DNA of 32,000 nucleotides from Micrococcaceae bacterium (lineage in GTDB: Bacteria; Actinomycetota; Actinomycetes; Actinomycetales; Micrococcaceae): NCBI GenBank assembly GCA_035999715.1, contig DASYGM010000065.1:16298-48297 (forward strand), given 5' to 3'. Of the stretch, positions 8,405-20,916 are shown piece by piece. The stretch's first letter is position 1. Every line of letters begins with the position of its first letter. The notes beneath the pieces are model-generated. The model searched no databases, was not told the DNA's origin, and saw only the letters and a list, made by a program, of their open reading frames with translations. The position numbers and the translations under genes are program-made.

Positions 8405-9595
8405 ATGAACTCAGCGGGCACTCTCACCCTGTCCAAGCTTGGCCGGGCCCGAAAATCATTCAGCCGCCGGGAATGGGGATCGCTGGCAGCCATGGCCGGG
8501 TTCGTGGTGCTCCTTCATGCTCTTGGTTGGGGTGTCTTGGTGGCGGTGGCCGCACCCGCCAGCCTTCCGGGTGTCCCCGCGGGGGTCTTTGGCGTCGGGC
8601 TGGGGGTGACCGCCTACACCTTGGGTCTGCGCCATGCCTTCGATGCGGACCATATCGCCGCCATCGACAATACGACGCGCAAACTGATGAACGACGGCAA
8701 GCGGCCGCTCTCGGTCGGATTCTGGTTTTCGCTGGGCCACTCCAGCATTGTCTTTGGGCTGTGCGCCCTGCTCGCTGCCGGCGTTCGCACGCTGGCCGAC
8801 CAGATGGATGCACCGTCCTCGACCCTGCATTCGGTCCTGGCCCTGGTGGGGACGGGCATCTCAGGGGTCTTCCTGTACATCATTGGAATCGTCAATCTGG
8901 TGCTGCTGGTCGGCATTGTCAAAATCTTCCGGGGCATGCGCCACGGCGCCTATGACGAGGCGTCCCTGGAGCAGCAGCTGAATCACCGGGGATTGGTGAA
9001 CCGGGTCTTTGGCCGCGCCACCCGGGTAGTCACACGGCCTTGGCAGATGTACGCCGTCGGGCTGCTCTTCGGCCTGGGATTCGACACCGCGACAGAGGTG
9101 AGCCTGCTGATCGTGGCCGGCGGGGCGGCGGCGTTCGCACTGCCCTGGTACGCCATCCTGACCCTGCCGGTCCTGTTCGCAGCGGGCATGAGCCTGCTGG
9201 ACTCGGTGGACGGCTGCTTCATGAACTTCGCCTACGGCTGGGCGTTCTCCCGGCCGGTGCGGAAGATCTACTACAACCTGGTCATCACCGCGCTCTCGGT
9301 CTCCGTCGCATTGGTGGTCGGCTCGATCGAACTCATCTCCCTCCTGGTGGAGGGGACGGGCATGACGGCCGGACCGCTCGCGGCAATCGGACGGCTGGAC
9401 CTGAACCTGGTGGGCTATGCGATCGTCGCGGTCTTCCTCCTGGCCTGGCTGGCGGCCGTGGCCATCTGGAGATTCGCCCGCATAGAGGACAAATGGGATG
9501 CCGCGTTCCAGCCGCAGCCGGATCCGGAGGATGCCGCCACAGCCCCGGCACTCCGCCCGCCAGCGCACGCCGCGGCCCCGCCGTCGGACTATTGA
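8405..9595 (+). CDS. hoxN: HoxN/HupN/NixA-family nickel/cobalt transporter (NiCoT)
   Basis: The NiCoT signature RHAFDADHIAAIDNTTR is present in TM2, plus LGFDTATEV and GMSLLDSVDG, with about 8 TM segments. It sits directly upstream of hypA and hypB. Confidence 0.9.
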   Translation: MNSAGTLTLSKLGRARKSFSRREWGSLAAMAGFVVLLHALGWGVLVAVAAPASLPGVPAGVFGVGLGVTAYTLGLRHAFDADHIAAIDNTTRKLMNDGKRPLSVGFWFSLGHSSIVFGLCALLAAGVRTLADQMDAPSSTLHSVLALVGTGISGVFLYIIGIVNLVLLVGIVKIFRGMRHGAYDEASLEQQLNHRGLVNRVFGRATRVVTRPWQMYAVGLLFGLGFDTATEVSLLIVAGGAAAFALPWYAILTLPVLFAAGMSLLDSVDGCFMNFAYGWAFSRPVRKIYYNLVITALSVSVALVVGSIELISLLVEGTGMTAGPLAAIGRLDLNLVGYAIVAVFLLAWLAAVAIWRFARIEDKWDAAFQPQPDPEDAATAPALRPPAHAAAPPSDY

Positions 9596-9642
9596 AGTTT
9601 CCAAAGGGGGCGCCTACATTGATTTCAGAGGTGGCAATGCCC

Positions 9643-9972
9643 ATGCATGAACTCTCTATCACCCAAAGCCTGGTCGATGCGGTCCTGGACCGCACCGGCA
9701 CACAGCCGGTTACCGGCGTGCATGTGCGCGTCGGACGGCTCTCCGGCGTCCTGCCTGATGCGATGAGGTTCTGCTTCGAACTGATTTCCGACGGCACGCC
9801 GCTGGCCGGGGCACAGCTGCTGATCGACGAGCCCGACGGCGTAACCCGATGCCGTTCCTGCGGCACGGATACCGCCATGCTGGACATGATCCCGTTGTGT
9901 CCGTGCGGCAGCGCCGACGTCGAAATCATCAGTGGACGCGAGCTTATGCTCACGTCCGTGGAGGTGGCCTGA
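9643..9972 (+). CDS. hypA: hydrogenase maturation nickel metallochaperone HypA
   Basis: MHELSITQSLVDAV is the conserved MHE Ni-binding N-terminus, and the zinc site is CRSCG...CPCG. SD GAGGTGG is at 9627-9633. The track ORF 9040..9972 is an over-extended version of the same frame; ATG 9637 is a possible alternative start. Confidence 0.9.
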   Translation: MHELSITQSLVDAVLDRTGTQPVTGVHVRVGRLSGVLPDAMRFCFELISDGTPLAGAQLLIDEPDGVTRCRSCGTDTAMLDMIPLCPCGSADVEIISGRELMLTSVEVA

Positions 9973-10907: not shown

Positions 10908-11969
10908 ATGGTGCCTACTGCTGCAGCAGCGCAGGCTGAAGAGACCCTCATCCATGTCCTGTGGATCAATGCCGGGCTCAGTTGTGACGGGGACTCGGTA
11001 TCCCTGACGGCAGCAACCCAGCCCAGCGTCGAAGAAATCGCCCTCGGCGCGCTTCCCGGGTTGCCCAGAATCGCCATGCACTGGCCGCTGATCGACTTTG
11101 AGTGTGGCCCGCAGGAGGGCGCCGACGATTTCCTGGAGTGGTTCCGCAAGGCCGACCGCGGTGAGCTGGAACCGTTTGTCCTGGTGGTGGAGGGGTCCAT
11201 CCCGAACGAGAAACTACATGCCGACGGCGGCTACTGGTCTGGCTTCGGCAATGACCTTGAGACCGGCCAGCCCATCACCACCAGCGAGTGGCTGGACAGG
11301 CTGGCACCCAAGGCCACGGCGATCATCGCGGCCGGAACCTGTGCCACGTACGGTGGGATCCACGCGATGGCCGGTAACCCCACCGGTGCCATGGGGGTAC
11401 CGGACTACCTGGGCTATGACTGGAAGTCCAAGGCGGGGATCCCCATTGTCTGCGTGCCCGGGTGCCCCATCCAGCCAGACAATCTTTCCGAGACCATGAC
11501 CTACCTGCTCTACCAGGCCACCGGCCAGGCACCGATGATCCCGCTCGATGAGTCGCTGCGGCCCACCTGGCTGTTCGGCGCGACGGTCCATGAGGGCTGC
11601 GACCGCGCCGGCTACTACGAACAGGGCGATTTCGCCACGGAGTACGGCTCCCCCAAATGCATCGTGAAACTGGGCTGCTGGGGGCCGGTGGTCAAGTGCA
11701 ACGTCCCCAAGCGCGGCTGGATGAACGGGCTGGGCGGCTGCCCCAACGTGGGCGGTATCTGCATCGGCTGCACCATGCCGGGCTTCCCGGACAAGTTCAT
11801 GCCGTTCATGGACGAGCCTCCCGGCGGAAGGCTGAGCACCAACGCCGTCCGGCCCTACGGGACCACCATGCGCACGCTGCGCCACATCACAACGCACACG
11901 CTGGACCAGGAACCAAGTTGGCGCAAACCCGGCCGACAACTGCTCACCGGCGCGACCCGCACCTGGTAG
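10908..11969 (+). CDS. hhyS: [NiFe]-hydrogenase small subunit, group 1h/5 (actinobacterial high-affinity type)
   Basis: Fe-S ligand motifs are LSCDGDSVS (Asp in place of the second Cys of the usual CxxC), GTCATYGGIH, VPGCPIQPDN, HEGCDR, KCIVKLGCWGPVVKCN and GGCPNVGGICIGCTMPGFPDKF. There is no twin-arginine signal. SD AAAGGAGG is at 10898-10905, so GTG 10911 is an alternative start. Confidence 0.9.
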   Translation: MVPTAAAAQAEETLIHVLWINAGLSCDGDSVSLTAATQPSVEEIALGALPGLPRIAMHWPLIDFECGPQEGADDFLEWFRKADRGELEPFVLVVEGSIPNEKLHADGGYWSGFGNDLETGQPITTSEWLDRLAPKATAIIAAGTCATYGGIHAMAGNPTGAMGVPDYLGYDWKSKAGIPIVCVPGCPIQPDNLSETMTYLLYQATGQAPMIPLDESLRPTWLFGATVHEGCDRAGYYEQGDFATEYGSPKCIVKLGCWGPVVKCNVPKRGWMNGLGGCPNVGGICIGCTMPGFPDKFMPFMDEPPGGRLSTNAVRPYGTTMRTLRHITTHTLDQEPSWRKPGRQLLTGATRTW

Positions 11970-11996: not shown

Positions 11997-13790
11997 ATGA
12001 CTTCGACCATTCCGATGCCCGCCACGGGCGGCACTTCCGACGACGGCCTGGTGGAGATGGCGTGGGACCCCATCACCCGCATCGTCGGCAGCCTGGGGAT
12101 CTACACCAAGATCGACTTCAGCAACAAGCAGGTGGTGGAGTGCCACAGCACGTCATCGATCTTCCGCGGCTACTCCATCTTCATGCGGGGTAAGGATCCG
12201 CGGGACGCGCACTTCATCACCAGCCGGATCTGCGGAATCTGCGGCGACAACCACGCCACCTGCTCCTGCTATGCGCAAAACATGGCGTACGGGGTGAAGC
12301 CCCCTGCACTTGGTGAATGGATCGTGAACCTGGGCGAGGCCGCCGAGTACATGTTCGACCACAACATCTTCCAGGAGAACCTGGTGGGCGTGGACTACTG
12401 CGAGAAAATGGTCTCCGAAACCAACCCGTCGGTGCTGGCCAGCGCGGAGAACACCCGTGCCCCGCACGAGGCCGAGCACGGCTACCGCACCATCGCGGAC
12501 ATCATGCGCTCGCTGAACCCGTTCACCGGCGAGTTCTACCGCGAGGCCCTGCAGGTCAGCCGGCTCACCCGGGAGATGTTCTGCCTGATGGAGGGCCGCC
12601 ACGTGCACCCCTCCACGCTGTACCCCGGCGGGGTCGGCACCGTGGCCACCGTGCAACTGATGACGGACTACATCACCCGGCTGATGCGCTACGTGGAATT
12701 CATGAAGAAAGTCGTGCCCATGCACGATGACCTCTTCAACTTCTTCTACGAGGCACTGCCCGGCTACGAGCAGGTGGGGCTGCGCCGGACCCTGCTGGGC
12801 TGCTGGGGTTCCTTCCAGGACCCGGACCACTGCAACTTCGAGTACAAGGACATGACGGAGTGGGGCCGGAAGATGTTCGTCACCCCCGGCGTCGTGGTGG
12901 ACGGGAAGCTGGTGACCACCGACCTGGTCCAGATCAACCTGGGCATCCGGATCATGCTGGGCTCCTCCTACTATGAGGACTGGAATGACCAGGAAATGTT
13001 CGTCACCCACGACCCGCTGGGCAACCCGGTGGACAGGCGCCATCCCTGGAACCAGCACACCAATCCGCAGCCGCAGAAGCGCGACCTGCAGGACAAGTAC
13101 AGCTGGGTCATGTCGCCGCGCTGGTCCGACGGCCAGGACAACCTGGCGCTGGACACCGGCGGCGGCCCCCTGGCACGGCTCTGGTCCACGGCGCTCGCCG
13201 GGTTGGTGGACGTGGGCTACATCCAGTCCACCGGGCACAGCGTACAGATCAACCTGCCCAAGACCGCCTTGAAGGGACCTGTCACCCTGGAGTGGAAGAT
13301 TCCGCAGTGGAGCAACACGTTGGAGCGCAACCGGGCCCGCACCTATTTCCAGGCCTACGCGGCCGCCGCCGCCCTGCACTTTGCCGAAAAGGCGCTGGCG
13401 GAGATCCGCGCCGGACACACCAAGACCTGGGAGACCTTCGACGTCCCGGATGAGGCGGTGAGCTGCGGCTTCACGGAGGCCGTCCGCGGCGTGCTGTCGC
13501 ACCACATGGTGATCCGCGACGGGAAGATCGCCAACTACCACCCCTATCCGCCGACGCCGTGGAACGCGAGTCCCAGGGATGCCTCCGGAACGCCGGGACC
13601 CTACGAGGACGCGGTGCAGGGACAGCCGATCTTCGAGGAGAACGACCGCGAGCACTTCAAGGGCATCGACATCATGCGGACGGTGCGCAGCTTCGACCCC
13701 TGCCTGCCGTGCGGGGTCCATATGTACCTGGGCGACGGCAAGACCTTGGAGAAGCTGCACTCCCCGACGCAGTCACTGACCGGAGAGTAG
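11997..13790 (+). CDS. hhyL: [NiFe]-hydrogenase large subunit, group 1h/5
   Basis: The N-terminal Ni-Fe ligand motif is TSRICGICGDNH and the C-terminal motif is SFDPCLPCGVH. A 22-aa extension (MYLGDGKTLEKLHSPTQSLTGE, 13722-13787) follows, of the kind removed by the maturation protease. The protein is 597 aa; SD GAGAGG is at 11984-11989. Confidence 0.95.
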   Translation: MTSTIPMPATGGTSDDGLVEMAWDPITRIVGSLGIYTKIDFSNKQVVECHSTSSIFRGYSIFMRGKDPRDAHFITSRICGICGDNHATCSCYAQNMAYGVKPPALGEWIVNLGEAAEYMFDHNIFQENLVGVDYCEKMVSETNPSVLASAENTRAPHEAEHGYRTIADIMRSLNPFTGEFYREALQVSRLTREMFCLMEGRHVHPSTLYPGGVGTVATVQLMTDYITRLMRYVEFMKKVVPMHDDLFNFFYEALPGYEQVGLRRTLLGCWGSFQDPDHCNFEYKDMTEWGRKMFVTPGVVVDGKLVTTDLVQINLGIRIMLGSSYYEDWNDQEMFVTHDPLGNPVDRRHPWNQHTNPQPQKRDLQDKYSWVMSPRWSDGQDNLALDTGGGPLARLWSTALAGLVDVGYIQSTGHSVQINLPKTALKGPVTLEWKIPQWSNTLERNRARTYFQAYAAAAALHFAEKALAEIRAGHTKTWETFDVPDEAVSCGFTEAVRGVLSHHMVIRDGKIANYHPYPPTPWNASPRDASGTPGPYEDAVQGQPIFEENDREHFKGIDIMRTVRSFDPCLPCGVHMYLGDGKTLEKLHSPTQSLTGE

Positions 13791-13796
13791 CCCGCC

Positions 13797-14807
13797 GTGG
13801 ACGGGGACACGGTGGTGGCTGCCATGGACGGGAACGGAGCCTTCCCGCCCACGGACGGCAGCGCTCCGGAGCGCCCCGTCGACGGCGATCCCCGGGGCGA
13901 GGCCCGGCTCAGGGCCGCGGGCGAGCGGATCAGCACCCTGCTGGACGCCCTGGGCGCCGGCGGCGCGGTGGCCAGGGAGCGTGCCGAGGACCTGGTGCGC
14001 CAGGTGACCGACCTGTACGGCGCGGGGCTGGAACGCATCCTGACCGTCCTGACTGCCGGCGGCCCCGGACGGGACGACGTCCTAAACGAACTGCTGGCGG
14101 ACGATCTGGTCTCCTGCCTGCTGCTGGTGCACGGCCTGCATCCGCGGGACCTGGCCACCCGCGTGGCGTCCGCGCTGGACAGTGTCCGGCCGTACCTGGG
14201 CTCGCATGGCGGCGACGTCGAGTTGCTGGGGATCAGCGACGACGGCGCGGTGCGCCTGCGTCTGCTGGGCAGCTGCCAGGGCTGCCCGTCGTCGTCGGTC
14301 ACGCTCAAGTACGCCGTCGAGGATGCCATCATGGCCGCGGCCCCGGAGGCCACCTCGATTGTGGTTCAGGAGGCGGAAAAGTCCGCCGGCTCGCCGGCAC
14401 TGATCCCCGTGTCATCGCTGCGCCTGCGCCTGGATCAGGTTCCCGAGCAGCCCGAGGGGTCCTGGGAGGCGCTCCCCGGGATTGCCGAGCTGCAGCCCGG
14501 CGAGGTGGCAGGATTCCTGGCCGCCGGCGTGGAGCTGCTGGTTTGCCGGAGCGGGCAGGACCTGTACGCCTTCCGCGACTACTGCCCGCGCTGCACCGGG
14601 TCCATGGCCGGAGCTGCCCTGCAACGGGCGCTCGCCGCGCCCACCGGCGGCGGACTGCTGCGCTGTCCGCTCTGCCGGAGCCACTTCGATGTCCGGCGGG
14701 CGGGGGCATGCGTGGAGGACAAGGGACTGCATTTGGATCCGCTCCCGCTGCTGGTCCGTTCCGGCGTGATGTCCGTAGCCGTGCCGGTCGGAACGGAGCG
14801 CGCCTGA
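13797..14807 (+). CDS. NifU-domain iron-sulfur protein with a C-terminal Rieske-like fold bearing four Cys (HhyE-like)
   Basis: The NifU C-terminal-type segment is LDSVRPYLGSHGGDVELLGISDDGAVRLRLLGSCQGCPSS. The C-terminus YAFRDYCPRCTG...LLRCPLCRSHFD aligns to the Rieske pattern CPH.G...CP.HG, but with Cys in place of both His. The GTG start is 6 nt after the hhyL stop. Confidence 0.8.
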   Translation: MDGDTVVAAMDGNGAFPPTDGSAPERPVDGDPRGEARLRAAGERISTLLDALGAGGAVARERAEDLVRQVTDLYGAGLERILTVLTAGGPGRDDVLNELLADDLVSCLLLVHGLHPRDLATRVASALDSVRPYLGSHGGDVELLGISDDGAVRLRLLGSCQGCPSSSVTLKYAVEDAIMAAAPEATSIVVQEAEKSAGSPALIPVSSLRLRLDQVPEQPEGSWEALPGIAELQPGEVAGFLAAGVELLVCRSGQDLYAFRDYCPRCTGSMAGAALQRALAAPTGGGLLRCPLCRSHFDVRRAGACVEDKGLHLDPLPLLVRSGVMSVAVPVGTERA

Positions 14808-15693: not shown

Positions 15694-16327
15694 CCTTCAG
15701 TTCGCCGTCGTTGACCTTCAGCCGGAGCGTTACGCCGCGGCCCCCCAACTGACCGCACGGCTGCGCATCAGCGAATCCACCGGCGCCGCCATCCACGCCA
15801 TCGCCCTGCGCTGCCAGGTCCGCATCCAACCGCAGCGGCGCGGCTATGACGCCGAGGAAGCGGCCGGGCTGCTGGACCTCTTTGGCCCGCGCGAACGCTG
15901 GCCCTCCACGCTGAAACCATTCCTGTGGATGCAGTGCAGCACCATGGTCCAGGGGTTCACGGACCAGACCGAGGTGGACCTGCCGCTGCCGTGCACCTTT
16001 GACTTCGACGTGGTCGGCGCGAAATACCTGCACGCCCTCCGGGACAAGGCCGTCCCGCTTGAGCTGCTCTTTTCCGGCACGATCTTCACCAAGGGAACCA
16101 CCGGATTCGGGGTGGAGCAGGTGCCCTGGGACCGGGAAGCGAGCTACCAGATGCCGGTGTCCGTGTGGCGAGGGCTGATGGACGCGTTCTTCCCGCACGC
16201 CGGCTGGATCCGTCTTGACCTCGACGTCATCAACGCGCTGGCGCACTACAAAGCCGCGCTGGGCCTGACCTCCTGGGAGGAAACCATGGAGAGCCTACTG
16301 GCGAAGGCCGGTGAACCGGTCCCGTGA
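15686..16327 (+). CDS. conserved hydrogenase-cluster protein of unknown function (DUF6084-like by recollection)
   Basis: 213 aa. ATG 15686 overlaps the upstream gene by 8 nt, and its stop overlaps GTG 16324 of the next gene (GTGA). No motif was recognised. Confidence 0.8.
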   Translation: MTDLQFAVVDLQPERYAAAPQLTARLRISESTGAAIHAIALRCQVRIQPQRRGYDAEEAAGLLDLFGPRERWPSTLKPFLWMQCSTMVQGFTDQTEVDLPLPCTFDFDVVGAKYLHALRDKAVPLELLFSGTIFTKGTTGFGVEQVPWDREASYQMPVSVWRGLMDAFFPHAGWIRLDLDVINALAHYKAALGLTSWEETMESLLAKAGEPVP

Positions 16328-17757
16328 ACACTAGTCTCAGCCTGGCCCGCGCCATTGCGGATGTGGTCCTCTACGAGGGCTATCTGCTCTACCCCTACCG
16401 GGCCTCCTCCCAGAAGAACCAGGCCCGCTGGCAGTTCGGCATCCTGGGCCCTCAGGGCGCCGCCGGGAACGGAACGGGCGAGGATTCTGCTATGTCCACC
16501 GACTGCCTGCTGCTGGCCGGCCCCCTAGCCCGGCTGGAGGTCCATCTGCGCTTCCTGCAGCTGCAGTCGCGCAGCGTCGAGGAGGCCGACGGCGGCGCCT
16601 TCCGGCCGGTGCCCGGGCTGACGGTCGGATCCGCCAGCTGGCTGAGCTGGGACGAGGCGACTGAGCACGAGCTGACGCTGGGGCCGTTCAGCCTGGCCGA
16701 GCTGGCCGAGGGCCTGAGCCTGCCCGTGGAGGTTGCCGGCGGGGAGGAGGCGGAACTTCTGACGGATGAGGCCGGCACGGTGGCCGGAAGGCTGGTCCGA
16801 CGGCGGCGGCCGCTGCACGGTGTCGTCCGGCTGACGGCGGCGGAAGTTCCGCCAGCCGGGACGGCGGAAGTGTCGCCAGCCGGGACGGACACCAGTGCCC
16901 CGTTCGACTGTGGCAGCAGGCCGTTGCTCCGGCTGCGGGTGGCAGCCGAAAACCTTGCGGACGGCCAGGGCGCGGGCAAGCAGGGTGCCATCGCCACGTC
17001 GTTTATCGGCACCCATCTGCTGCTTGGCGCCCAGGACGCGGATTTCGTCTCGCTGCTTGAGCCGCCCGCCGAAGCTCAGGCCGTCGCTGCCGCGTGCACC
17101 CATCACCGGTGCTGGCCCGTACTGGCCGGTCCAGAAGGCCAGCGGGACATTCTGCTGCTGTCCCCGATCATTCTCTACGACCACCCGGCCGTTGCTCCGG
17201 AAAGCTCCGTTGCCCTCTACGACTCCACCGAAATCGACGAGATCCTGACCCTGCGTGTACTGACACTGACCGAGGAGGAAAAGGCCGAGGCCCGTGCCAC
17301 CGATCCGCGTGCGGCTGCGGTCATTGACCGCTGCGAGGCGATGTCCCCGCAGGAGCTGCAGCAGCTGCATGGGGCTCTGCGCAGCCCGCATGCCATGGAG
17401 GGGGCAGCAGAAGCCGGGGATCTGCCCTGGTGGGATCCGGCATCGGACGCCAGCGTCCAGCCGGAGGCCGACGTCGTCATGATCGCCGGAGTCCCGGTCT
17501 CGCGGGGCAGCCGGGTGGTTGTCCGCCCGCAGCGCCGGGCCGACGCACAGGACCTGTTTTCCGCCGGCCAAATCGCCCGCGTCAACGGCGTGCACTTCGA
17601 CGTCGACGGAAGCACGCACGTCGCCGTCGTTCTGGAAGCGGATCCGGCCGCGGAACTGCAGGAATGGTACGGCCGCTATCTGTATTTTGCACCGGAGGAG
17701 CTGGAACCGATGGGTCCGCTGACGGACCCGGAAGATCGAAGGGAAAATGGATCATGA
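16324..17757 (+). CDS. 477-aa hypothetical protein of the hydrogenase operon
   Basis: This long ORF has consistent GC3 bias. The N-terminus reads ADVVLYEGYLLYPYRASSQKNQARWQFGILGP. It contains an in-frame 24-bp tandem duplication at 16840-16887 and is coupled to its neighbours at both ends. I recognised no domain. Confidence 0.75.
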   Translation: MNTSLSLARAIADVVLYEGYLLYPYRASSQKNQARWQFGILGPQGAAGNGTGEDSAMSTDCLLLAGPLARLEVHLRFLQLQSRSVEEADGGAFRPVPGLTVGSASWLSWDEATEHELTLGPFSLAELAEGLSLPVEVAGGEEAELLTDEAGTVAGRLVRRRRPLHGVVRLTAAEVPPAGTAEVSPAGTDTSAPFDCGSRPLLRLRVAAENLADGQGAGKQGAIATSFIGTHLLLGAQDADFVSLLEPPAEAQAVAAACTHHRCWPVLAGPEGQRDILLLSPIILYDHPAVAPESSVALYDSTEIDEILTLRVLTLTEEEKAEARATDPRAAAVIDRCEAMSPQELQQLHGALRSPHAMEGAAEAGDLPWWDPASDASVQPEADVVMIAGVPVSRGSRVVVRPQRRADAQDLFSAGQIARVNGVHFDVDGSTHVAVVLEADPAAELQEWYGRYLYFAPEELEPMGPLTDPEDRRENGS

Positions 17758-17873
17758 GAGTCCTAGGCATGCTCACCACACTCGTGTTGCTGGCCGGGGC
17801 CGCTACGGTTGCGGTCGTCGGGGTGCGCTCCATCCCTGACATCCAGCGCTACCTTAAGATCAGGCAAATGTGA
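17754..17873 (+). CDS. 39-aa single-pass transmembrane micro-protein
   Basis: The peptide is MRVLGMLTTLVLLAGAATVAVVGVRSIPDIQRYLKIRQM: one hydrophobic helix followed by a basic amphipathic tail. ATG 17754 overlaps the upstream TGA (ATGA), and its stop 17871-17873 overlaps GTG 17870 of the protease ORF. Confidence 0.55.
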   Translation: MRVLGMLTTLVLLAGAATVAVVGVRSIPDIQRYLKIRQM

Positions 17874-18502
17874 GGCAATCGGTCCAAGCCGGTCAGCCCA
17901 GGGCCGTGGCTCCGGCCCCGGGTCCGGCCCTGGTATCCGGGCCGGACCCGGGGCATGTGCTGGTGGCCGGCGTCGGTAACATCTTCCTGCGCGACGACGG
18001 CTTCGGCCCCGAGGTGGCCCGCAGGCTCGCCTCGGAACCCCTTGCGTTCCAACCAGGGGTGCAGGTGGTGGATTACGGCATCCGCGGGATGCATCTGGCC
18101 TACGATCTGTTGGACCCGGTGGATGCGCTGGTGCTGGTGGATGCGTTGCCTCCGGGTTCCGGGATGCCTGGAGACCTCCGTGTGATGCAGATAACGCCGG
18201 AGGATCTAACGTCCGGGTCACACATTGGCCAGCCACACGTTGGGCAGCCACACGTTGGGCTGGGGCTGGACCTGCACGGCATGGATCCGTTGACGGTCTT
18301 GGCCCGGCTTCGCTCGCTGGGCGGAGAGCTGCCGATGACCTATCTGGTGGGGTGCGTGGTGGCGGACACCGAAGAAGGCATCGGTCTCTCGTCCGCAGTG
18401 GAGGCCGCCGTGCCGCGCGCCATGGCCCAGGTCATCTCGCTGGCTGCGCAGCATGTTTCCGCGGTCGCCGCTGAACTGACCCCAACCGATCCGAGGAGGT
18501 AG
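17870..18502 (+). CDS. hupD: hydrogenase maturation (large-subunit C-terminal) endopeptidase, HupD/HyaD/HybD family
   Basis: VLVAGVGNIFLRDDGFGPEVARRL and VVDYGIRGMHLAYDLL...LVLVDA are typical of this family. The start is uncertain: either GTG 17870 (coupled) or GTG 17957 (VLVAGVGN...). It contains a QPHVG-QPHVG in-frame repeat. Confidence 0.85.
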   Translation: MRQSVQAGQPRAVAPAPGPALVSGPDPGHVLVAGVGNIFLRDDGFGPEVARRLASEPLAFQPGVQVVDYGIRGMHLAYDLLDPVDALVLVDALPPGSGMPGDLRVMQITPEDLTSGSHIGQPHVGQPHVGLGLDLHGMDPLTVLARLRSLGGELPMTYLVGCVVADTEEGIGLSSAVEAAVPRAMAQVISLAAQHVSAVAAELTPTDPRR

Positions 18503-18507
18503 CCGCC

Positions 18508-18807
18508 ATGTGTCTGGGGATTCCGGGAAAAGTAATAGAGATGGTTGAGGGGTACGGAGGCCAGCTGGCGCTGGTTGATGTGGCCGGGGTGCGGCGGAAG
18601 ATTAACATCGGCCTGTTGGACGAGGGGCCGCTTGAGCCGGGGTCGTGGGTGCTCATACATATGGGGTTTGCGCTGGAACGCGTGGATGCCGCCGGGGCTG
18701 ACAAAGCCATGGACGGGCTGGAACTGATGGGCCGGCCCCGGAATGCCGACGTGGACGCCGGTAAACAGGCAGCCGTTGGGGAAGTTCGGGGCGTGACCGA
18801 AGTTTAG
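18508..18807 (+). CDS. hypC: HypC/HybG/HupF-family hydrogenase assembly chaperone
   Basis: The N-terminus MCLGIPGKVIEM contains the essential Cys2, and PGSWVLIHMGFALERVD is also present. SD GAGGAGG (18493-18499) lies 8 nt upstream. Confidence 0.9.
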   Translation: MCLGIPGKVIEMVEGYGGQLALVDVAGVRRKINIGLLDEGPLEPGSWVLIHMGFALERVDAAGADKAMDGLELMGRPRNADVDAGKQAAVGEVRGVTEV

Positions 18808-19583
18808 GTGTAGTGCTCCAGGGCCACGGCGGTGCCCCTGTGTTCGACGCTGCTGTTCGCGATTTTCAGGTGCCGGACGGTGAAGAGCTGTAGCTGGTGC
18901 AGCTGCGGCGCGGTGAGCCTGTCGCACACCCAGTCCCAATGCAGGGATACGGCGTCGCCCACGGCCAGGTCCGCCACGAAGCCCACGCCCGCCACCGCGT
19001 ACCTGGCCGTCTCAACCTGTGGCTGGCCGAGTGAGAGGACCCGGCCGTCCCACTCCAGCGGGCGGGAGCTCACCAGGGCCTCGTCGCCGGTGATGGCCAG
19101 CACTTCGCCCCACCGGATGCGGCATTTATCCAGCACGTTTAGTGCGGTGGCATAGCGCCGGTCATCGCGCAGCAGCCCCAGCCATGGATAGACCTCGAAG
19201 ACATGGAAACTGTGGTGCGGAACGCCGCCCGCCAGCACCCCTTCGATCAGGTGCGGGAACTGCTGCCCGGTGCGGGCGCGGAACCGGTCTTCCATTGAGT
19301 TGCCAACGTTTCGGAGGCCGACGCGGTCCAGCAGTGAGTTGCCCACCCAGTAGGCCTCCACCACCCGGTGATCCAGTGGATCACGGATTCCTGTGGCCCC
19401 GGCAATGAGTTCCAGATAGGGCCAGGCACCGGCGAACCCTTTGGCCAGTTCACGCAGTCCGGGATCTGTGACGCCGGATTGGCCGTAGTGCAGCAGTGCA
19501 TCACTGTCTTCGGGCCCGCAACTGCCTCGGGAGTTGGGCGGGTAGGCATAACGGACAAACAACTGGGCGCCATCGATAACCAT
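18804..19583 (-). CDS. DUF6390-like protein (by recollection) whose C-terminal third resembles HypC
   Basis: 259 aa from ATG 19583 (MVIDGAQLFVRYAYPPN...), with a GAGG-containing SD upstream. The track ORF extends to 19889, but that extension is Pro/Arg-rich and lacks codon bias. The gene is convergent with hypC and shares 4 nt (18804-18807). Confidence 0.75.
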   Translation of the reverse strand: MVIDGAQLFVRYAYPPNSRGSCGPEDSDALLHYGQSGVTDPGLRELAKGFAGAWPYLELIAGATGIRDPLDHRVVEAYWVGNSLLDRVGLRNVGNSMEDRFRARTGQQFPHLIEGVLAGGVPHHSFHVFEVYPWLGLLRDDRRYATALNVLDKCRIRWGEVLAITGDEALVSSRPLEWDGRVLSLGQPQVETARYAVAGVGFVADLAVGDAVSLHWDWVCDRLTAPQLHQLQLFTVRHLKIANSSVEHRGTAVALEHYT

Positions 19584-19680
19584 GTTCTGGCCTCGTTCCC
19601 TAGGGTGATACTTGACGGTAGCACCGCCCTGTATGGCCGACAAGGAAACCTGAAGCTGCCGTCGTCGGGCGCGCGTTCCG

Positions 19681-19709
19681 TTGACACTCCCAGCACCCGG
19701 GTAGATGCT
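19681..19709 (+). promoter_or_regulatory. candidate promoter TTGACA-N17-GATGCT for the ABC importer operon
   Basis: TTGACA is at 19681-19686, followed by a 17-nt spacer and GATGCT at 19704-19709, about 55 nt upstream of GTG 19765. This is a pattern match only. Confidence 0.3.
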
Positions 19710-19764
19710 GGAGGCCTGCACGCTCTTCTTGAACACCAATGTTCTCTGTCGAGGAGGTGAGCCA

Positions 19765-20916
19765 GTGTCTTCCGGCCAGATCCCCCGGCGCTCGCTCCTG
19801 AAAGGCATCGTCCTAGGTGGCGGGGCGGCGTTGCTGTCCGGCTGCGGCCCGAGCGGCGACGCGGGCGGCGCCCCAACGGTGGCAGGCACTGACTACGCCG
19901 CCGGCCCCCTCAGCGTCACTGACCAGCGTGGCAAGACCCTGACCTTCAGCAAACCGGTCACCAGGGTGGTGACCATTCCGATGCCGGCGGCTTCGCTACT
20001 GGTGGCCGTCGACCAGGGCGCAGGCCATCTGTCCGCCATGCATAACGCGTCCTGGGTGGCCATGCGGGACGGCATTATGGGACAGTTCTACCCGGCTGCT
20101 TTGAACATCCCCCATGACATTGCCACCCAAGACTTCATCCCGAACGTCGAAAGCGTCCGCGCGCTGGATCCGGACGTCGTCGTGCAGTGGAGCGACTCGC
20201 AACTCATCGCCCCACTGGAAAACGCGGGCCTGAAGGTGCTGGGGCTGAGCAACACTGGAACGCAGCAGGACGTGGATGCCTGGATCACCATGTTCGCGGC
20301 CATGCTGGGCAAGCCGGAGCGTGCCAGCCAGTTCAAGGCCCGCAGCGACGCGGAACTGAAGGAAGTCCAGTCCGCTGCTGCGGGGCACGCCGGAGCCGGC
20401 CCACGGATCATCTACTTCAACCGCTTCACCGGCGGTCTCAAGGTGGCGGGAACGAGCAGCTACAACGACTTCTACATCAAACTGGTGGGCGGAACCAATC
20501 CGGCCTCCGGCGCGCAGGGGGCTAAGGGCTCGGGGATGGTCGGGGTCGACGTCGAACAGGTGCTGGCCTGGGATCCGGAGGTGGTCCTGTTGGGGAACTT
20601 CGATGCGGCGATGCCCAACGACATCTACTCCAACCCGGTCTGGCAGACGGTCTCCGCGGTCCGCTCCCGCCGGGTCTACAAGGTTCCGCTGGGCGGCTAC
20701 CGCTGGGATCCGCCCGGACAGGAATCGCCCTTGATGTGGCACTGGCTGGCAGACATCAGCTTTCCCCAGCAGGGTAAATCGCAGCTCCGCAACAAGATCA
20801 CCGGCTACTACGACTTTCTCTATGCCCGTAAACCCAGCACCGAGCAAATGGACAAGGTCCTGTGGACCGATGTGAACGGCCAGTCGACCGACTACGGGCA
20901 ATTCGATGCTTCATGA
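19765..20916 (+). CDS. ABC transporter substrate-binding lipoprotein, FecB/BtuF (iron-chelate/cobalamin, TroA-like) type, Tat-signal
   Basis: GTG 19765 lies 7 nt after SD GAGGAGG (19751-19757). The twin-arginine plus lipobox signal is SSGQIPRRSLLKGIVLGGGAALLSGC. The body resembles periplasmic binding protein family 8 (VVTIPMPAASLL..., DPDVVVQW, DPEVVLLGN). Confidence 0.85.
   Translation: MSSGQIPRRSLLKGIVLGGGAALLSGCGPSGDAGGAPTVAGTDYAAGPLSVTDQRGKTLTFSKPVTRVVTIPMPAASLLVAVDQGAGHLSAMHNASWVAMRDGIMGQFYPAALNIPHDIATQDFIPNVESVRALDPDVVVQWSDSQLIAPLENAGLKVLGLSNTGTQQDVDAWITMFAAMLGKPERASQFKARSDAELKEVQSAAAGHAGAGPRIIYFNRFTGGLKVAGTSSYNDFYIKLVGGTNPASGAQGAKGSGMVGVDVEQVLAWDPEVVLLGNFDAAMPNDIYSNPVWQTVSAVRSRRVYKVPLGGYRWDPPGQESPLMWHWLADISFPQQGKSQLRNKITGYYDFLYARKPSTEQMDKVLWTDVNGQSTDYGQFDAS

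What the first reader, a model, noticed from the sequence alone, without database searches (positions are those of the whole stretch)
17754..17873. 39-aa single-TM micro-protein coupled at both ends inside the hydrogenase operon: candidate membrane anchor
Seen: the peptide MRVLGMLTTLVLLAGAATVAVVGVRSIPDIQRYLKIRQM has one clear hydrophobic helix and then a basic tail. Its ATG shares ATGA with the stop of the 477-aa gene, and its TGA overlaps the GTG of the protease ORF.

Established: neither hydrogenase subunit here has a signal peptide or TM segment, and no cytochrome b gene is present.

Inference: this is the only membrane-spanning product in the structural part of the operon. It could tether the soluble HhySL complex, or the 477-aa protein, to the membrane. 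Such small ORFs are easily missed by annotation.
Basis: partly seen in the sequence, partly recalled or inferred. Interest (0 to 1): 0.6.

Follow-up and report, generated by a model that had tools for sequence, protein, structure and literature searches.

The report
Hydrogenase-cluster membrane micro-protein (DUF6893)
The 39-codon frame is a real, widely conserved gene for a one-helix membrane peptide of the catalogued but untested family DUF6893, which travels with the hydrogenase that consumes atmospheric hydrogen and is a testable candidate for how that enzyme is held at the membrane.

Summary
Window 17754-17873 (+) encodes the 39-aa peptide as read, with an ATGA overlap to the 477-aa gene and ATGTGA at the longest protease ORF. 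It is not a chance ORF. It matches Pfam PF21833 (DUF6893) at 56.5 bits (cut-off 24.6) and has coding-type codon statistics. It is the only TM-grade hydrophobic product between hhyS and hypC.

The family is large: 2,751 representative clusters across at least 8 phyla. It is almost confined to group 1h [NiFe]-hydrogenase clusters, usually beside the maturation protease. Every member I looked at has one hydrophobic helix. In all 30 profile-found members the tail has invariant Arg-Tyr and the protein ends in Met. Charge bias predicts N-out/C-in.

The function is untested. The membrane-tether reading is plausible, and papers up to 2026 say no anchor subunit is known. Complex modelling did not reach the mark for HhyS+HhyL (median 0.11) or for the 477-aa protein, HhyE and protease (0.00). 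One of three runs put the conserved tail on the 1h-specific C-terminal extension of HhyS; this is a lead only.

This scan has reported the same family before, on other genomes. Verdict: an ordinary member of a known family of unknown function, with a worthwhile, testable hypothesis.

The parts
17754..17873 (+). DUF6893 small-protein gene (39 codons plus TGA)
   Evidence: sequence; PF21833, 56.5 bits against a cut-off of 24.6; coding-type GC3 of 0.78; single copy in the genome.
17738..17744 (+). Shine-Dalgarno-like GAAGGGA, 9 nt before the ATG
   Evidence: Nearly all homologues carry GGAGG or AAGGAG 5-10 nt upstream of their start.
17769..17825 (+). Hydrophobic helix, residues 6-24 (predicted transmembrane segment)
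   Evidence: 19-aa Kyte-Doolittle mean of 2.23; the family median uncharged span is 17.5 residues; the language-model features are those of a single-pass membrane helix (unchecked labels).
17835..17870 (+). Conserved C-terminal tail P-D-[ILV]-x-R-Y-[LFMI]-[KR]-[IML]-R-x-M, residues 28-39, ending the protein
   Evidence: R32, Y33 and M39 are invariant, and D29 and R37 nearly so, in 30 members found by the Pfam profile. These five residues fall on one face if the tail is helical; net charge is +2.76 on the C side against +0.98 on the N side.
16324..17757 (+). 477-aa conserved protein of unknown function, upstream neighbour (ATGA overlap)
   Evidence: no Pfam or NCBIfam family; homologues sit next to the sORF or protease in all loci; fused to the protease in some genomes. 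AF2 model at pLDDT 83, with no solved fold for the N-domain and an SH3-like C-domain.
17870..18502 (+). HycI/HupD-type hydrogenase maturation protease (longest ORF; start uncertain, possibly 17957)
   Evidence: PF01750; TIGR00072, 103 bits, from residue 31.
10908..11969 (+). hhyS, group 1h small subunit; residues from about 301 to 353 are a 1h-specific C-terminal extension
   Evidence: 5AA5_A at E 2.9e-161, while other small subunits align only to about residue 300; the unsupported modelling lead places the sORF tail on residues 292-337.
11997..13790 (+). hhyL, group 1h large subunit
   Evidence: PF00374; 78% identical to the C. necator pHG1 enzyme..
13797..14807 (+). hhyE-like NifU plus Rieske-like iron-sulfur protein
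   Evidence: The role in M. smegmatis comes from PMC6883350.
18508..18807 (+). hypC/hupF chaperone, downstream end of the conserved module
   Evidence: PF01455; synteny.

Best explanation
SHOWN. The ORF is a translated-type, conserved gene of family DUF6893. The product is a 30-40 aa bitopic membrane peptive-like protein: a short N-terminus, one hydrophobic helix, and a basic C-terminal tail. The tail carries invariant Arg-Tyr and a terminal Met. The gene belongs to the group 1h [NiFe]-hydrogenase gene cluster.

INFERRED, and the mechanism I commit to. The helix sits in the cytoplasmic membrane with the tail in the cytoplasm. The conserved face of the tail docks a cytoplasmic component of the Hhy system. 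The peptide thus acts in trans as the membrane tether of this otherwise soluble-looking enzyme. The most likely docking site is the 1h-specific C-terminal extension of HhyS, next to where small subunits of membrane-bound hydrogenases carry their own anchor. This would bring the electron exit close to the quinone pool.
For: Gene reality:
- Pfam hit above the cut-off.
- Coding-type codon statistics.
- Shine-Dalgarno sites across homologues.
- 2,751 representative clusters at E<=0.001, nearly all 32-40 aa and matched to their last residue.

Link to group 1h, in a 401-genome phylum sample:
- 34 of 48 genomes with HhyL at 64% identity or more carry the sORF. All 16 genomes that have only a hydrogenase about 40% identical to HhyL lack it.
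- All 30 loci fetched put it next to the 477-aa gene, the protease or hypC.
- 118 of 120 pattern-found loci from Acidobacteriota, Dormibacterota, Planctomycetota, Gemmatimonadota, Verrucomicrobiota, Pseudomonadota and others are true members. Of 125 copies, 81 lie directly after the protease.

Anchor-plus-docking design:
- The helix sequence drifts while the tail is fixed.
- Long Acidobacteriota forms keep one TM helix and the same tail, separated by a linker of about 25 aa.
- Charge bias predicts N-out/C-in.
- D29, R32, Y33, R37 and M39 share one helical face.

Position and modelling:
- In some Acidobacteriaceae the single copy lies directly upstream of hhyS.
- One modelling run (0.54) and the contact sets of all three runs (83-88% shared) put exactly the conserved tail residues on HhyS 292-337.

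Need for such a part:
- M. smegmatis Hhy is found only in membranes and resists 5% cholate, yet has no TM segment (10.1101/769216).
- The same puzzle is reported in Methylacidiphilum (PMC7174314).
- The only solved 1h structure is 5AA5, which holds just the two subunits.
Against: - There is no experimental datum on the protein.
- Complex modelling gave no support. HhyS+HhyL+sORF had a median of 0.11 against a mark of 0.34. Agreement between seeds is not evidence. In a heterodimer model the HhyS extension may simply be an exposed surface.
- The gene sits in the maturation part of the cluster (protease, hypC), not in the hhyS-hhyL-hhyE operon of M. smegmatis.
- In some genomes it follows hypB, or lies in a protease-hypF-hypC set with no 1h structural genes.
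- A whole 1h subclade (HhyL 64-66% identical) lacks the gene. It has no replacement TM ORF in the six loci scanned.
- Some Acidobacteriota copies lie in unrelated neighbourhoods.
- dN/dS over the whole ORF is only about 0.5.
Confidence: 0.4

Rival explanations
1. Assembly factor. The peptide works during late maturation rather than in the finished enzyme. It would hold the protease, the 477-aa protein or the Hyp nickel-insertion machinery at the membrane, for example near the nickel permease. Alternatively it would hand the processed enzyme to its membrane site and then leave.
For: - 81 of 125 copies lie directly after the protease and 13 directly after the 477-aa gene.
- The 477-aa protein is fused to the protease in some genomes, so these neighbours form one module.
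- Copies follow hypF-hypA-hypB in L057 and L123.
- G384 has protease-sORF-hypF-hypC without a 1h large subunit in the genome.
- In M. smegmatis the position lies outside the structural operon MSMEG_2722-2718.
- This reading would explain why soluble, active enzyme can be purified from C. necator although the gene is present.
Against: - Modelling with the 477-aa protein, HhyE and the protease scored 0.00. Those chains folded poorly, so this is weak evidence.
- No known [NiFe] maturation step needs a membrane (general knowledge of the Hyp pathway).
- Some copies sit directly upstream of hhyS.
- The nickel permease is not a conserved neighbour.
Confidence: 0.3
2. Adaptor to another membrane complex. 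The helix binds an integral membrane protein, such as a terminal oxidase, a quinone-handling protein or the NicO/HoxN nickel permease. It would modulate that protein in the way small single-helix subunits such as CydX or AcrZ do. The tail would act as a regulatory or lipid-interface element rather than a hydrogenase dock.
For: - Small single-TM proteins often act this way (general knowledge).
- A NicO permease lies in the window's locus and a HoxN permease in the pHG1 locus.
- Orphan copies occur away from hydrogenase genes, one of them next to an ABC1/UbiB-type kinase.
Against: - The conserved part is the cytoplasmic tail, not the helix. This is the reverse of what helix-helix recognition in the membrane predicts.
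- No membrane protein is a conserved neighbour.
Confidence: 0.12
3. No protein function. The frame would be a by-product of translational coupling between the 477-aa gene and the protease, or a chance open frame in G+C-rich DNA.
For: - In this window the frame is open for 147 codons, and open frames are common in G+C-rich DNA.
- dN/dS is about 0.5.
Against: - The peptide is conserved across at least 8 phyla, in two gene orders and in positions that couple nothing.
- Three residues are invariant, and in all 30 profile-found members the protein ends in Met.
- Homologues have their own Shine-Dalgarno sites.
- The codon-position GC pattern starts at the ATG.
Confidence: 0.02

Closest known systems
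Pfam PF21833 (DUF6893); NCBI 'DUF6893 family small protein'
   Same: Full-length match above the curated cut-off. Same length class, the same single hydrophobic helix and the same C-terminal Arg-Tyr ... Arg-x-Met end.
   Different: Nothing separates the window's copy from the family. The family itself has no assigned function, and no paper in the searched library mentions it.
C-terminal transmembrane helix of group 1 membrane-bound hydrogenase small subunits (E. coli HyaA, PDB 4GD3) with cytochrome b HyaC/HoxZ
   Same: A single helix that holds a [NiFe] hydrogenase at the membrane, located after the small subunit's C-terminal region near the distal cluster (general knowledge). HhyS aligns to these subunits only up to about residue 300.
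   Different: - That helix is part of the small subunit, follows Tat export and faces the periplasm.
- It works with a four-helix haem protein.
- Here the helix is a separate 39-aa gene product, the enzyme has no Tat signal, and no cytochrome b gene is in the cluster.
- Binding of the sORF to HhyS is not shown.
HucM, the stalk subunit of the M. smegmatis group 2a hydrogenase Huc (PMC10017518)
   Same: An extra small subunit, encoded with a high-affinity cytoplasmic-side hydrogenase that lacks TM segments. It connects the enzyme to the membrane and the quinone pool.
   Different: [quoted passage not shown]
- DUF6893 is a 33-39 aa predicted integral single-pass peptide.
- I did not test sequence relatedness; nothing suggests any.
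Small single-helix accessory subunits of respiratory and transport complexes (for example CydX of cytochrome bd, AcrZ of AcrB); recalled, not tested here
   Same: Peptides of 30-50 aa with one TM helix, encoded in or beside the operon of the complex they serve.
   Different: In those proteins the helix makes the specific contact inside the membrane. In DUF6893 the conserved part is the cytoplasmic tail.

Membership tests
DUF6893 (PF21833) | Match to the Pfam profile above the gathering score over the whole profile | tested here: met
   56.5 bits against 24.6, with profile positions 1-32 of 32 on residues 8-39; 54.8 bits in the six-frame genome search.
DUF6893 (PF21833) | Small protein (about 30-45 aa) with one hydrophobic helix | tested here: met
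   (Kyte-Doolittle mean 2.23 over residues 6-24). (family lengths mostly 32-40 aa).
DUF6893 (PF21833) | C-terminal motif with invariant Arg-Tyr and a terminal Met (my description of the family from its members) | tested here: met
   R32, Y33 and M39 are invariant in 30 profile-found members, and the window has all three. Four of the 150 best library hits run on past the Met.
DUF6893 (PF21833) | Gene lies in a group 1h [NiFe]-hydrogenase cluster beside the protease or the 477-aa gene | tested here: met
   The window's order, 477-aa gene - sORF - protease - hypC, recurs in Rhodococcus, Nocardia, Prescottella, Arthrobacter sp. A5 and the M. intracellulare plasmid.
Cytochrome b-type hydrogenase membrane anchor (HyaC/HoxZ, PF01292) | Four transmembrane helices with haem-ligating histidines | tested here: not met
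   The peptide has one helix and no histidine. No such Pfam hit was found for it or its neighbours.
Hydrogenase membrane-anchor subunit in the functional sense (physically part of the enzyme) | Binds the hydrogenase and is needed for its membrane location | tested here: inconclusive
   median score 0.11, with one run at 0.54, against a mark of 0.34. No experiment exists. This needs fractionation of a mutant and co-purification.
HucM-type stalk subunit | Protein of about 189 aa forming a tetrameric amphipathic coiled-coil tube (PMC10017518) | not tested
   The length and predicted architecture differ (39 aa, one TM helix). No sequence or structure comparison was run.

The most novel reading that the evidence does not exclude
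DUF6893 is the missing third subunit of group 1h high-affinity hydrogenases. It would be an integral single-helix anchor supplied in trans. Its invariant Arg-Tyr...Met tail would clamp the 1h-specific C-terminal extension of HhyS. That would place the electron exit at the membrane and explain both the detergent-resistant membrane binding of Hhy and the soluble, low-affinity behaviour of enzyme purified without it.
Probability: 0.3. Interest if true: 0.8.

Novelty: new member of a known kind. Interest (0 to 1): 0.5.

Why it matters
Group 1h hydrogenases are a main biological sink for atmospheric hydrogen. Papers from 2014 to 2026 repeat that the enzyme is membrane-bound but that no anchoring subunit or route to the quinone pool is known.

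A conserved integral-membrane peptide encoded in almost every such cluster makes that question directly testable. One start-codon mutant and one co-purification in M. smegmatis would do it.

If the peptide proves to be an assembly factor instead, it would be the first membrane-located step in [NiFe] maturation.

If neither holds, this is one more annotated small protein of unknown function.

Tried and rejected
Repeated with two upstream in-frame codons, it found only 10 close relatives.
- The search for related loci with alignment A1 failed because no stretch was conserved enough. The first DNA pattern had too few plain bases. Absence anywhere cannot be read from it.
- Natural fusions that would name a partner: none found. 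Long open frames around the sORF are in other frames than the neighbouring genes. The 149-aa library protein P0139 looks like a frameshifted join of the C-terminal domain of the 477-aa protein with the sORF.
- A replacement TM ORF in the six sORF-less 1h loci scanned: none is consistent across them.
- PDB sequence search with the family profile gave only chance hits at E of about 1.
- AF2 model of the 477-aa protein plus Foldseek: no informative whole-fold match. Only the C-terminal domain is SH3-like, resembling PetP and the nitrile hydratase beta C-terminus. This did not help name the sORF's partner.
- The HhyS C-terminal extension differs by indels between clades with and without the sORF. 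This is one phylogenetic split, so I treat it as a lead, not as covariation evidence.
- dN/dS among close relatives is about 0.5. It is too weak to carry the argument, which rests on family-wide conservation of the tail.
- No sequencing-run search was made. Transcription of an operon-internal ORF would not show translation.
Full report
OBSERVATION

- The ATG shares ATGA with the stop of the 477-aa ORF (16324-17757).
- The last codons read ATG TGA, and the GTG at 17870 opens the longest ORF of the HycI-type protease.
- That protease start is not settled. The protease families match only from about residue 30, and homologues align from residues 18-30. GTG codons at 17957 and 17963 are possible starts, and codon statistics for 17870-17956 are ambiguous.
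- The peptide has the only TM-grade hydrophobic stretch between hhyS and hypC: a 19-aa Kyte-Doolittle mean of 2.23, against 1.36 or less for all other products.
- HhyS has no twin-arginine signal.
- No cytochrome b family appears among the cluster genes.
- The NicO nickel permease upstream (8405-9595) is a multi-TM protein, so 'only TM product' holds for hhyS to hypC only.

IS IT A GENE?

Yes.
- It matches Pfam PF21833 (DUF6893) at 56.5 bits against a curated cut-off of 24.6, covering the whole profile.
- GC by codon position is 0.60/0.42/0.78, like its neighbours. The same frame just upstream has GC3 of 0.46, so the coding signal begins at the ATG.
- A Shine-Dalgarno-like GAAGGGA lies 9 nt upstream. 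Nearly all homologues carry GGAGG or AAGGAG at the right distance.
- NCBI already names relatives 'DUF6893 family small protein' in Pseudarthrobacter and Mycobacterium.
- A profile of 45 members finds 2,751 representative clusters at E<=0.001 among 1.84 billion proteins. Almost all are 32-40 aa and match to their last residue.
- No paper in the searched library mentions DUF6893, and no member or relative is in the PDB.

WHERE IT OCCURS

Phylum sample. I searched an even sample of 401 genomes of the window's phylum.
- The Pfam profile hits 37 genomes.
- 48 genomes have a large subunit at least 64% identical to the window's HhyL.
- 33 genomes have both, and one more (G187) has a divergent copy found with my own profile.
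- None of the 16 genomes that have only a hydrogenase about 40% identical to HhyL has a hit. That count includes the two unpublished genomes G048 and G120; without them it is 0 of 14.
- Two real hits lie in genomes without a 1h large subunit. G243 is a decayed cluster with hhyS fragments. G384 has protease-sORF-hypF-hypC.
- Of the 14 genomes with a 1h enzyme but no sORF, eight form one subclade (HhyL 64-66% identical). The six of its loci that reach past the protease have no small hydrophobic ORF near it and no consistent replacement.
- For four of the 14 (two of them in that subclade), the stretch I fetched ends at a contig end. Two more are rearranged Streptomyces clusters.

Other phyla.
- The gene is present but absent from the gene tables I was shown in C. 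necator H16 pHG1 (L031:17642-17740, which is NC_005241.1 66753-66851, between the protease and hypF) and in Methylocystis parvus pMpar-2 (L032:17308-17403).
- Earlier notes of this scan call the pHG1 gene PHG071. I could confirm only that PHG070 is the protease.
118 hold true members by profile.
- They come from Actinomycetota, Acidobacteriota, Dormibacterota, Planctomycetota, Gemmatimonadota, Verrucomicrobiota, Pseudomonadota and a 'delta proteobacterium' MAG.

Neighbourhoods of the 125 copies in those loci.
- 81 lie directly after the protease, and 23 of these are followed by hypC.
- 13 lie directly after the homologue of the 477-aa gene, and 8 of these are followed by the protease. This is the window's order. 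It is shared with Rhodococcus, Nocardia, Prescottella, Arthrobacter sp. A5 and a M. intracellulare plasmid.
- 2 lie directly upstream of hhyS.
- 25 have no cluster gene within 700 nt. This is an upper bound, because the loci are fixed 8-kb blocks.
- Of ten orphan copies examined, two follow hypF-(hypA)-hypB and the rest have unrelated neighbours.

M. smegmatis. MSMEG_2714 ('hypothetical protein') sits between MSMEG_2715 and the protease MSMEG_2713 and is listed as co-induced with the cluster (PMC5445863). It is probably the orthologue. That is inferred from position only.

ANATOMY OF THE FAMILY

- All members have one hydrophobic helix. The median uncharged span is 17.5 residues, and it is 19-21 in the window's clade.
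- The tail reads P-D-[ILV]-x-R-Y-[LFMI]-[KR]-[IML]-R-x-M, followed by a stop codon.
- In the 30 members found by the Pfam profile (so not biased by my pattern), R32, Y33 and the terminal M39 are invariant. D29 and R37 are nearly so.
- The helix sequence varies freely, which accounts for a whole-ORF dN/dS of about 0.5.
- If the tail is helical, D29, R32, Y33, R37 and M39 share one face (mean direction 15 degrees) and the variable residues face the other way (198 degrees).
- Net charge is +2.76 on the C side of the helix and +0.98 on the N side. The C side is the more positive in 92 of 122 members, which predicts a cytoplasmic tail.
- Acidobacteriota also have a long form of 65-75 aa. It has a polar N-terminus, one TM helix, a linker of about 25 aa and the same tail. 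It lies after the protease, sometimes in tandem with the short form.
- Some Acidimicrobiia carry tandem short copies.
- A fixed tail on a drifting helix, with a variable linker, is what one expects of a membrane anchor joined to a docking peptide.

WHAT DOES THE TAIL BIND?

This could not be settled.
- ESMFold2 complex runs with HhyS+HhyL+sORF scored 0.11, 0.54 and 0.08 (median 0.11, mark 0.34). The tool's verdict was no support and no evidence against.
- In the best run, sORF residues 26, 29, 30, 32, 33, 36, 37 and 39 touch HhyS residues 292-337. The three runs share 83-88% of their contacts. The tool warns that seed agreement is no support.
- Residues from about 301 to 353 of HhyS are an extension found only in the 1h enzyme 5AA5. 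Other solved small subunits align only to about residue 300.
- In membrane-bound group 1 enzymes the small subunit continues at that point into its own TM anchor (general knowledge). The lead is therefore mechanistically attractive.
- That HhyS region may instead be an exposed dimer surface in a heterodimer model.
- The extension differs by indels between clades with and without the sORF, but that is a single split.
- A pool of the 477-aa protein, HhyE (residues 37-336), the protease (residues 28-210) and the sORF scored 0.00, with poor folds for all chains.
- The 477-aa protein remains without function. It has no Pfam or NCBIfam hit. Its AF2 model (pLDDT 83) shows a beta-rich N-domain with no solved match, a helical linker and an SH3-like C-domain.
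- The 477-aa protein is fused to the protease in L091 and L130 and in an Atlas cluster of 644 aa. This ties it to the late maturation step.

READING

The literature states the need for such a part.
- M. smegmatis Hhy is found only in the membrane fraction and resists 5% cholate, although no subunit has a TM segment.
- Methylacidiphilum Hyd-1h is membrane-associated 'without membrane anchor'.
- HhyE was proposed as the electron relay because no cytochrome b is present.
- A 2026 paper still says no anchoring subunit has been identified.

I therefore rank the tether reading first, at about 0.4. The counter-evidence is real:
- the gene keeps company with the maturation genes;
- it can occur with hyp genes alone;
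- one 1h subclade does without it.

An assembly-stage role is the main rival, at about 0.3. A role on another membrane complex is less likely, because the conserved part is the cytoplasmic tail. A non-functional frame is excluded by the conservation.

STANDING

The window's copy is an ordinary member of a catalogued family whose function has never been tested. This scan has reported the same family on at least 17 other genomes with the same general reading. I scored on my own tests.

- the anatomy of the tail;
- the long and tandem forms;
- the 1h subclade that lacks the sORF;
- the placement of copies beside hhyS or hypB;
- the result that complex modelling did not reach the mark for the partners tried, with a single unsupported lead to the HhyS extension.

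Noticed in passing
window 16324-17757; L091:986-2887:+; L130:2434-4146:+: The 477-aa protein of unknown function is fused in frame to the HycI-type protease in two Acidimicrobiia-type loci (634 and 571 aa) and in an Atlas cluster of 644 aa. It therefore probably acts with the protease in late maturation of the large subunit.
   Followed up: partly
L060:3805-5322:-, L061:4509-5921:-, L068:527-2026:+ (stop at about residue 355-361); L084:3198-4586:- (stop at residue 406): Homologues of the 477-aa protein in Pyrinomonadaceae and other Acidobacteria carry one in-frame stop at the same place. That place coincides with the disordered linker of the AF2 model (pLDDT below 50 at residues 350-364). The gene is probably split into an N-domain gene and an SH3-like C-domain gene there. 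I did not check which stop codon is used.
   Followed up: no
window 16324-17757 (model m334554c47454): The AF2 model of the 477-aa protein (pLDDT 83, pTM 0.69) has a large beta-rich N-domain with no solved counterpart (TM 0.25 or less). Its C-terminal barrel of about 75 residues resembles PetP of cytochrome b6f and the C-terminus of nitrile hydratase beta.
   Followed up: partly
L038, L039, L041, L042, L043, L045 (genomes G210, G018, G380, G252, G092, G045): In a subclade of group 1h clusters (HhyL 64-66% identical to the window's), the six loci that reach past the protease keep hhyS, hhyL, hhyE, DUF5947, DUF6084, the 477-aa gene and the protease. They have no DUF6893 gene. The HhyS C-terminal extension in this subclade carries two one-residue insertions and a different sequence.
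   Followed up: partly
L031:17642-17740:+ (NC_005241.1 66753-66851); L032:17308-17403:+: DUF6893 genes lie in the gaps after the protease in C. necator H16 pHG1 and in Methylocystis parvus pMpar-2. They are absent from the gene tables shown for these plasmids, and those tables are known to be incomplete. The Methylocystis copy is divergent: the motif's last Arg is replaced (the protein ends Thr-Met-Met) and it scores only 6 bits with my profile.
   Followed up: yes
L051, L053, L065, L166 (two short copies); L068, L125, L141, L169 (short plus long form): The small gene is duplicated in several lineages. Some carry tandem short copies. Acidobacteriota carry a short form and a 65-75 aa long form with a linker of about 25 aa that holds a second, partial R-R-Y-L motif.
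   Followed up: partly
L009 (G243:C1:2947319-2950408): This is a decayed cluster. Only fragments of hhyS and of the 477-aa gene remain, and the genome has no 1h large subunit. The DUF6893 gene, the protease and hypC are still intact.
   Followed up: no
L047 (G384:C1:2552000-2570000): The set protease - DUF6893 - hypF - hypC - (hypE-like) - SIS lies next to haem-synthesis genes. The genome has no 1h large subunit. Its only [NiFe] large-subunit match lies elsewhere in the genome and is of another type.
   Followed up: partly
window 9040-9972 and 8405-9595: The longest ORF holding the HypA domain is 310 aa, but the domain covers only residues 202-309, and the ORF overlaps the NicO permease gene by about 550 nt. 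The real hypA start is probably far downstream, near 9640.
   Followed up: no
window 18804-19889 (-) against 18832-19408 (+): The two plus-strand ORFs after hypC (107 and 88 aa) have no family hits. Which strand codes was not resolved here. The 107-aa ORF does have tblastn matches in L002, L022 and L122.
   Followed up: no
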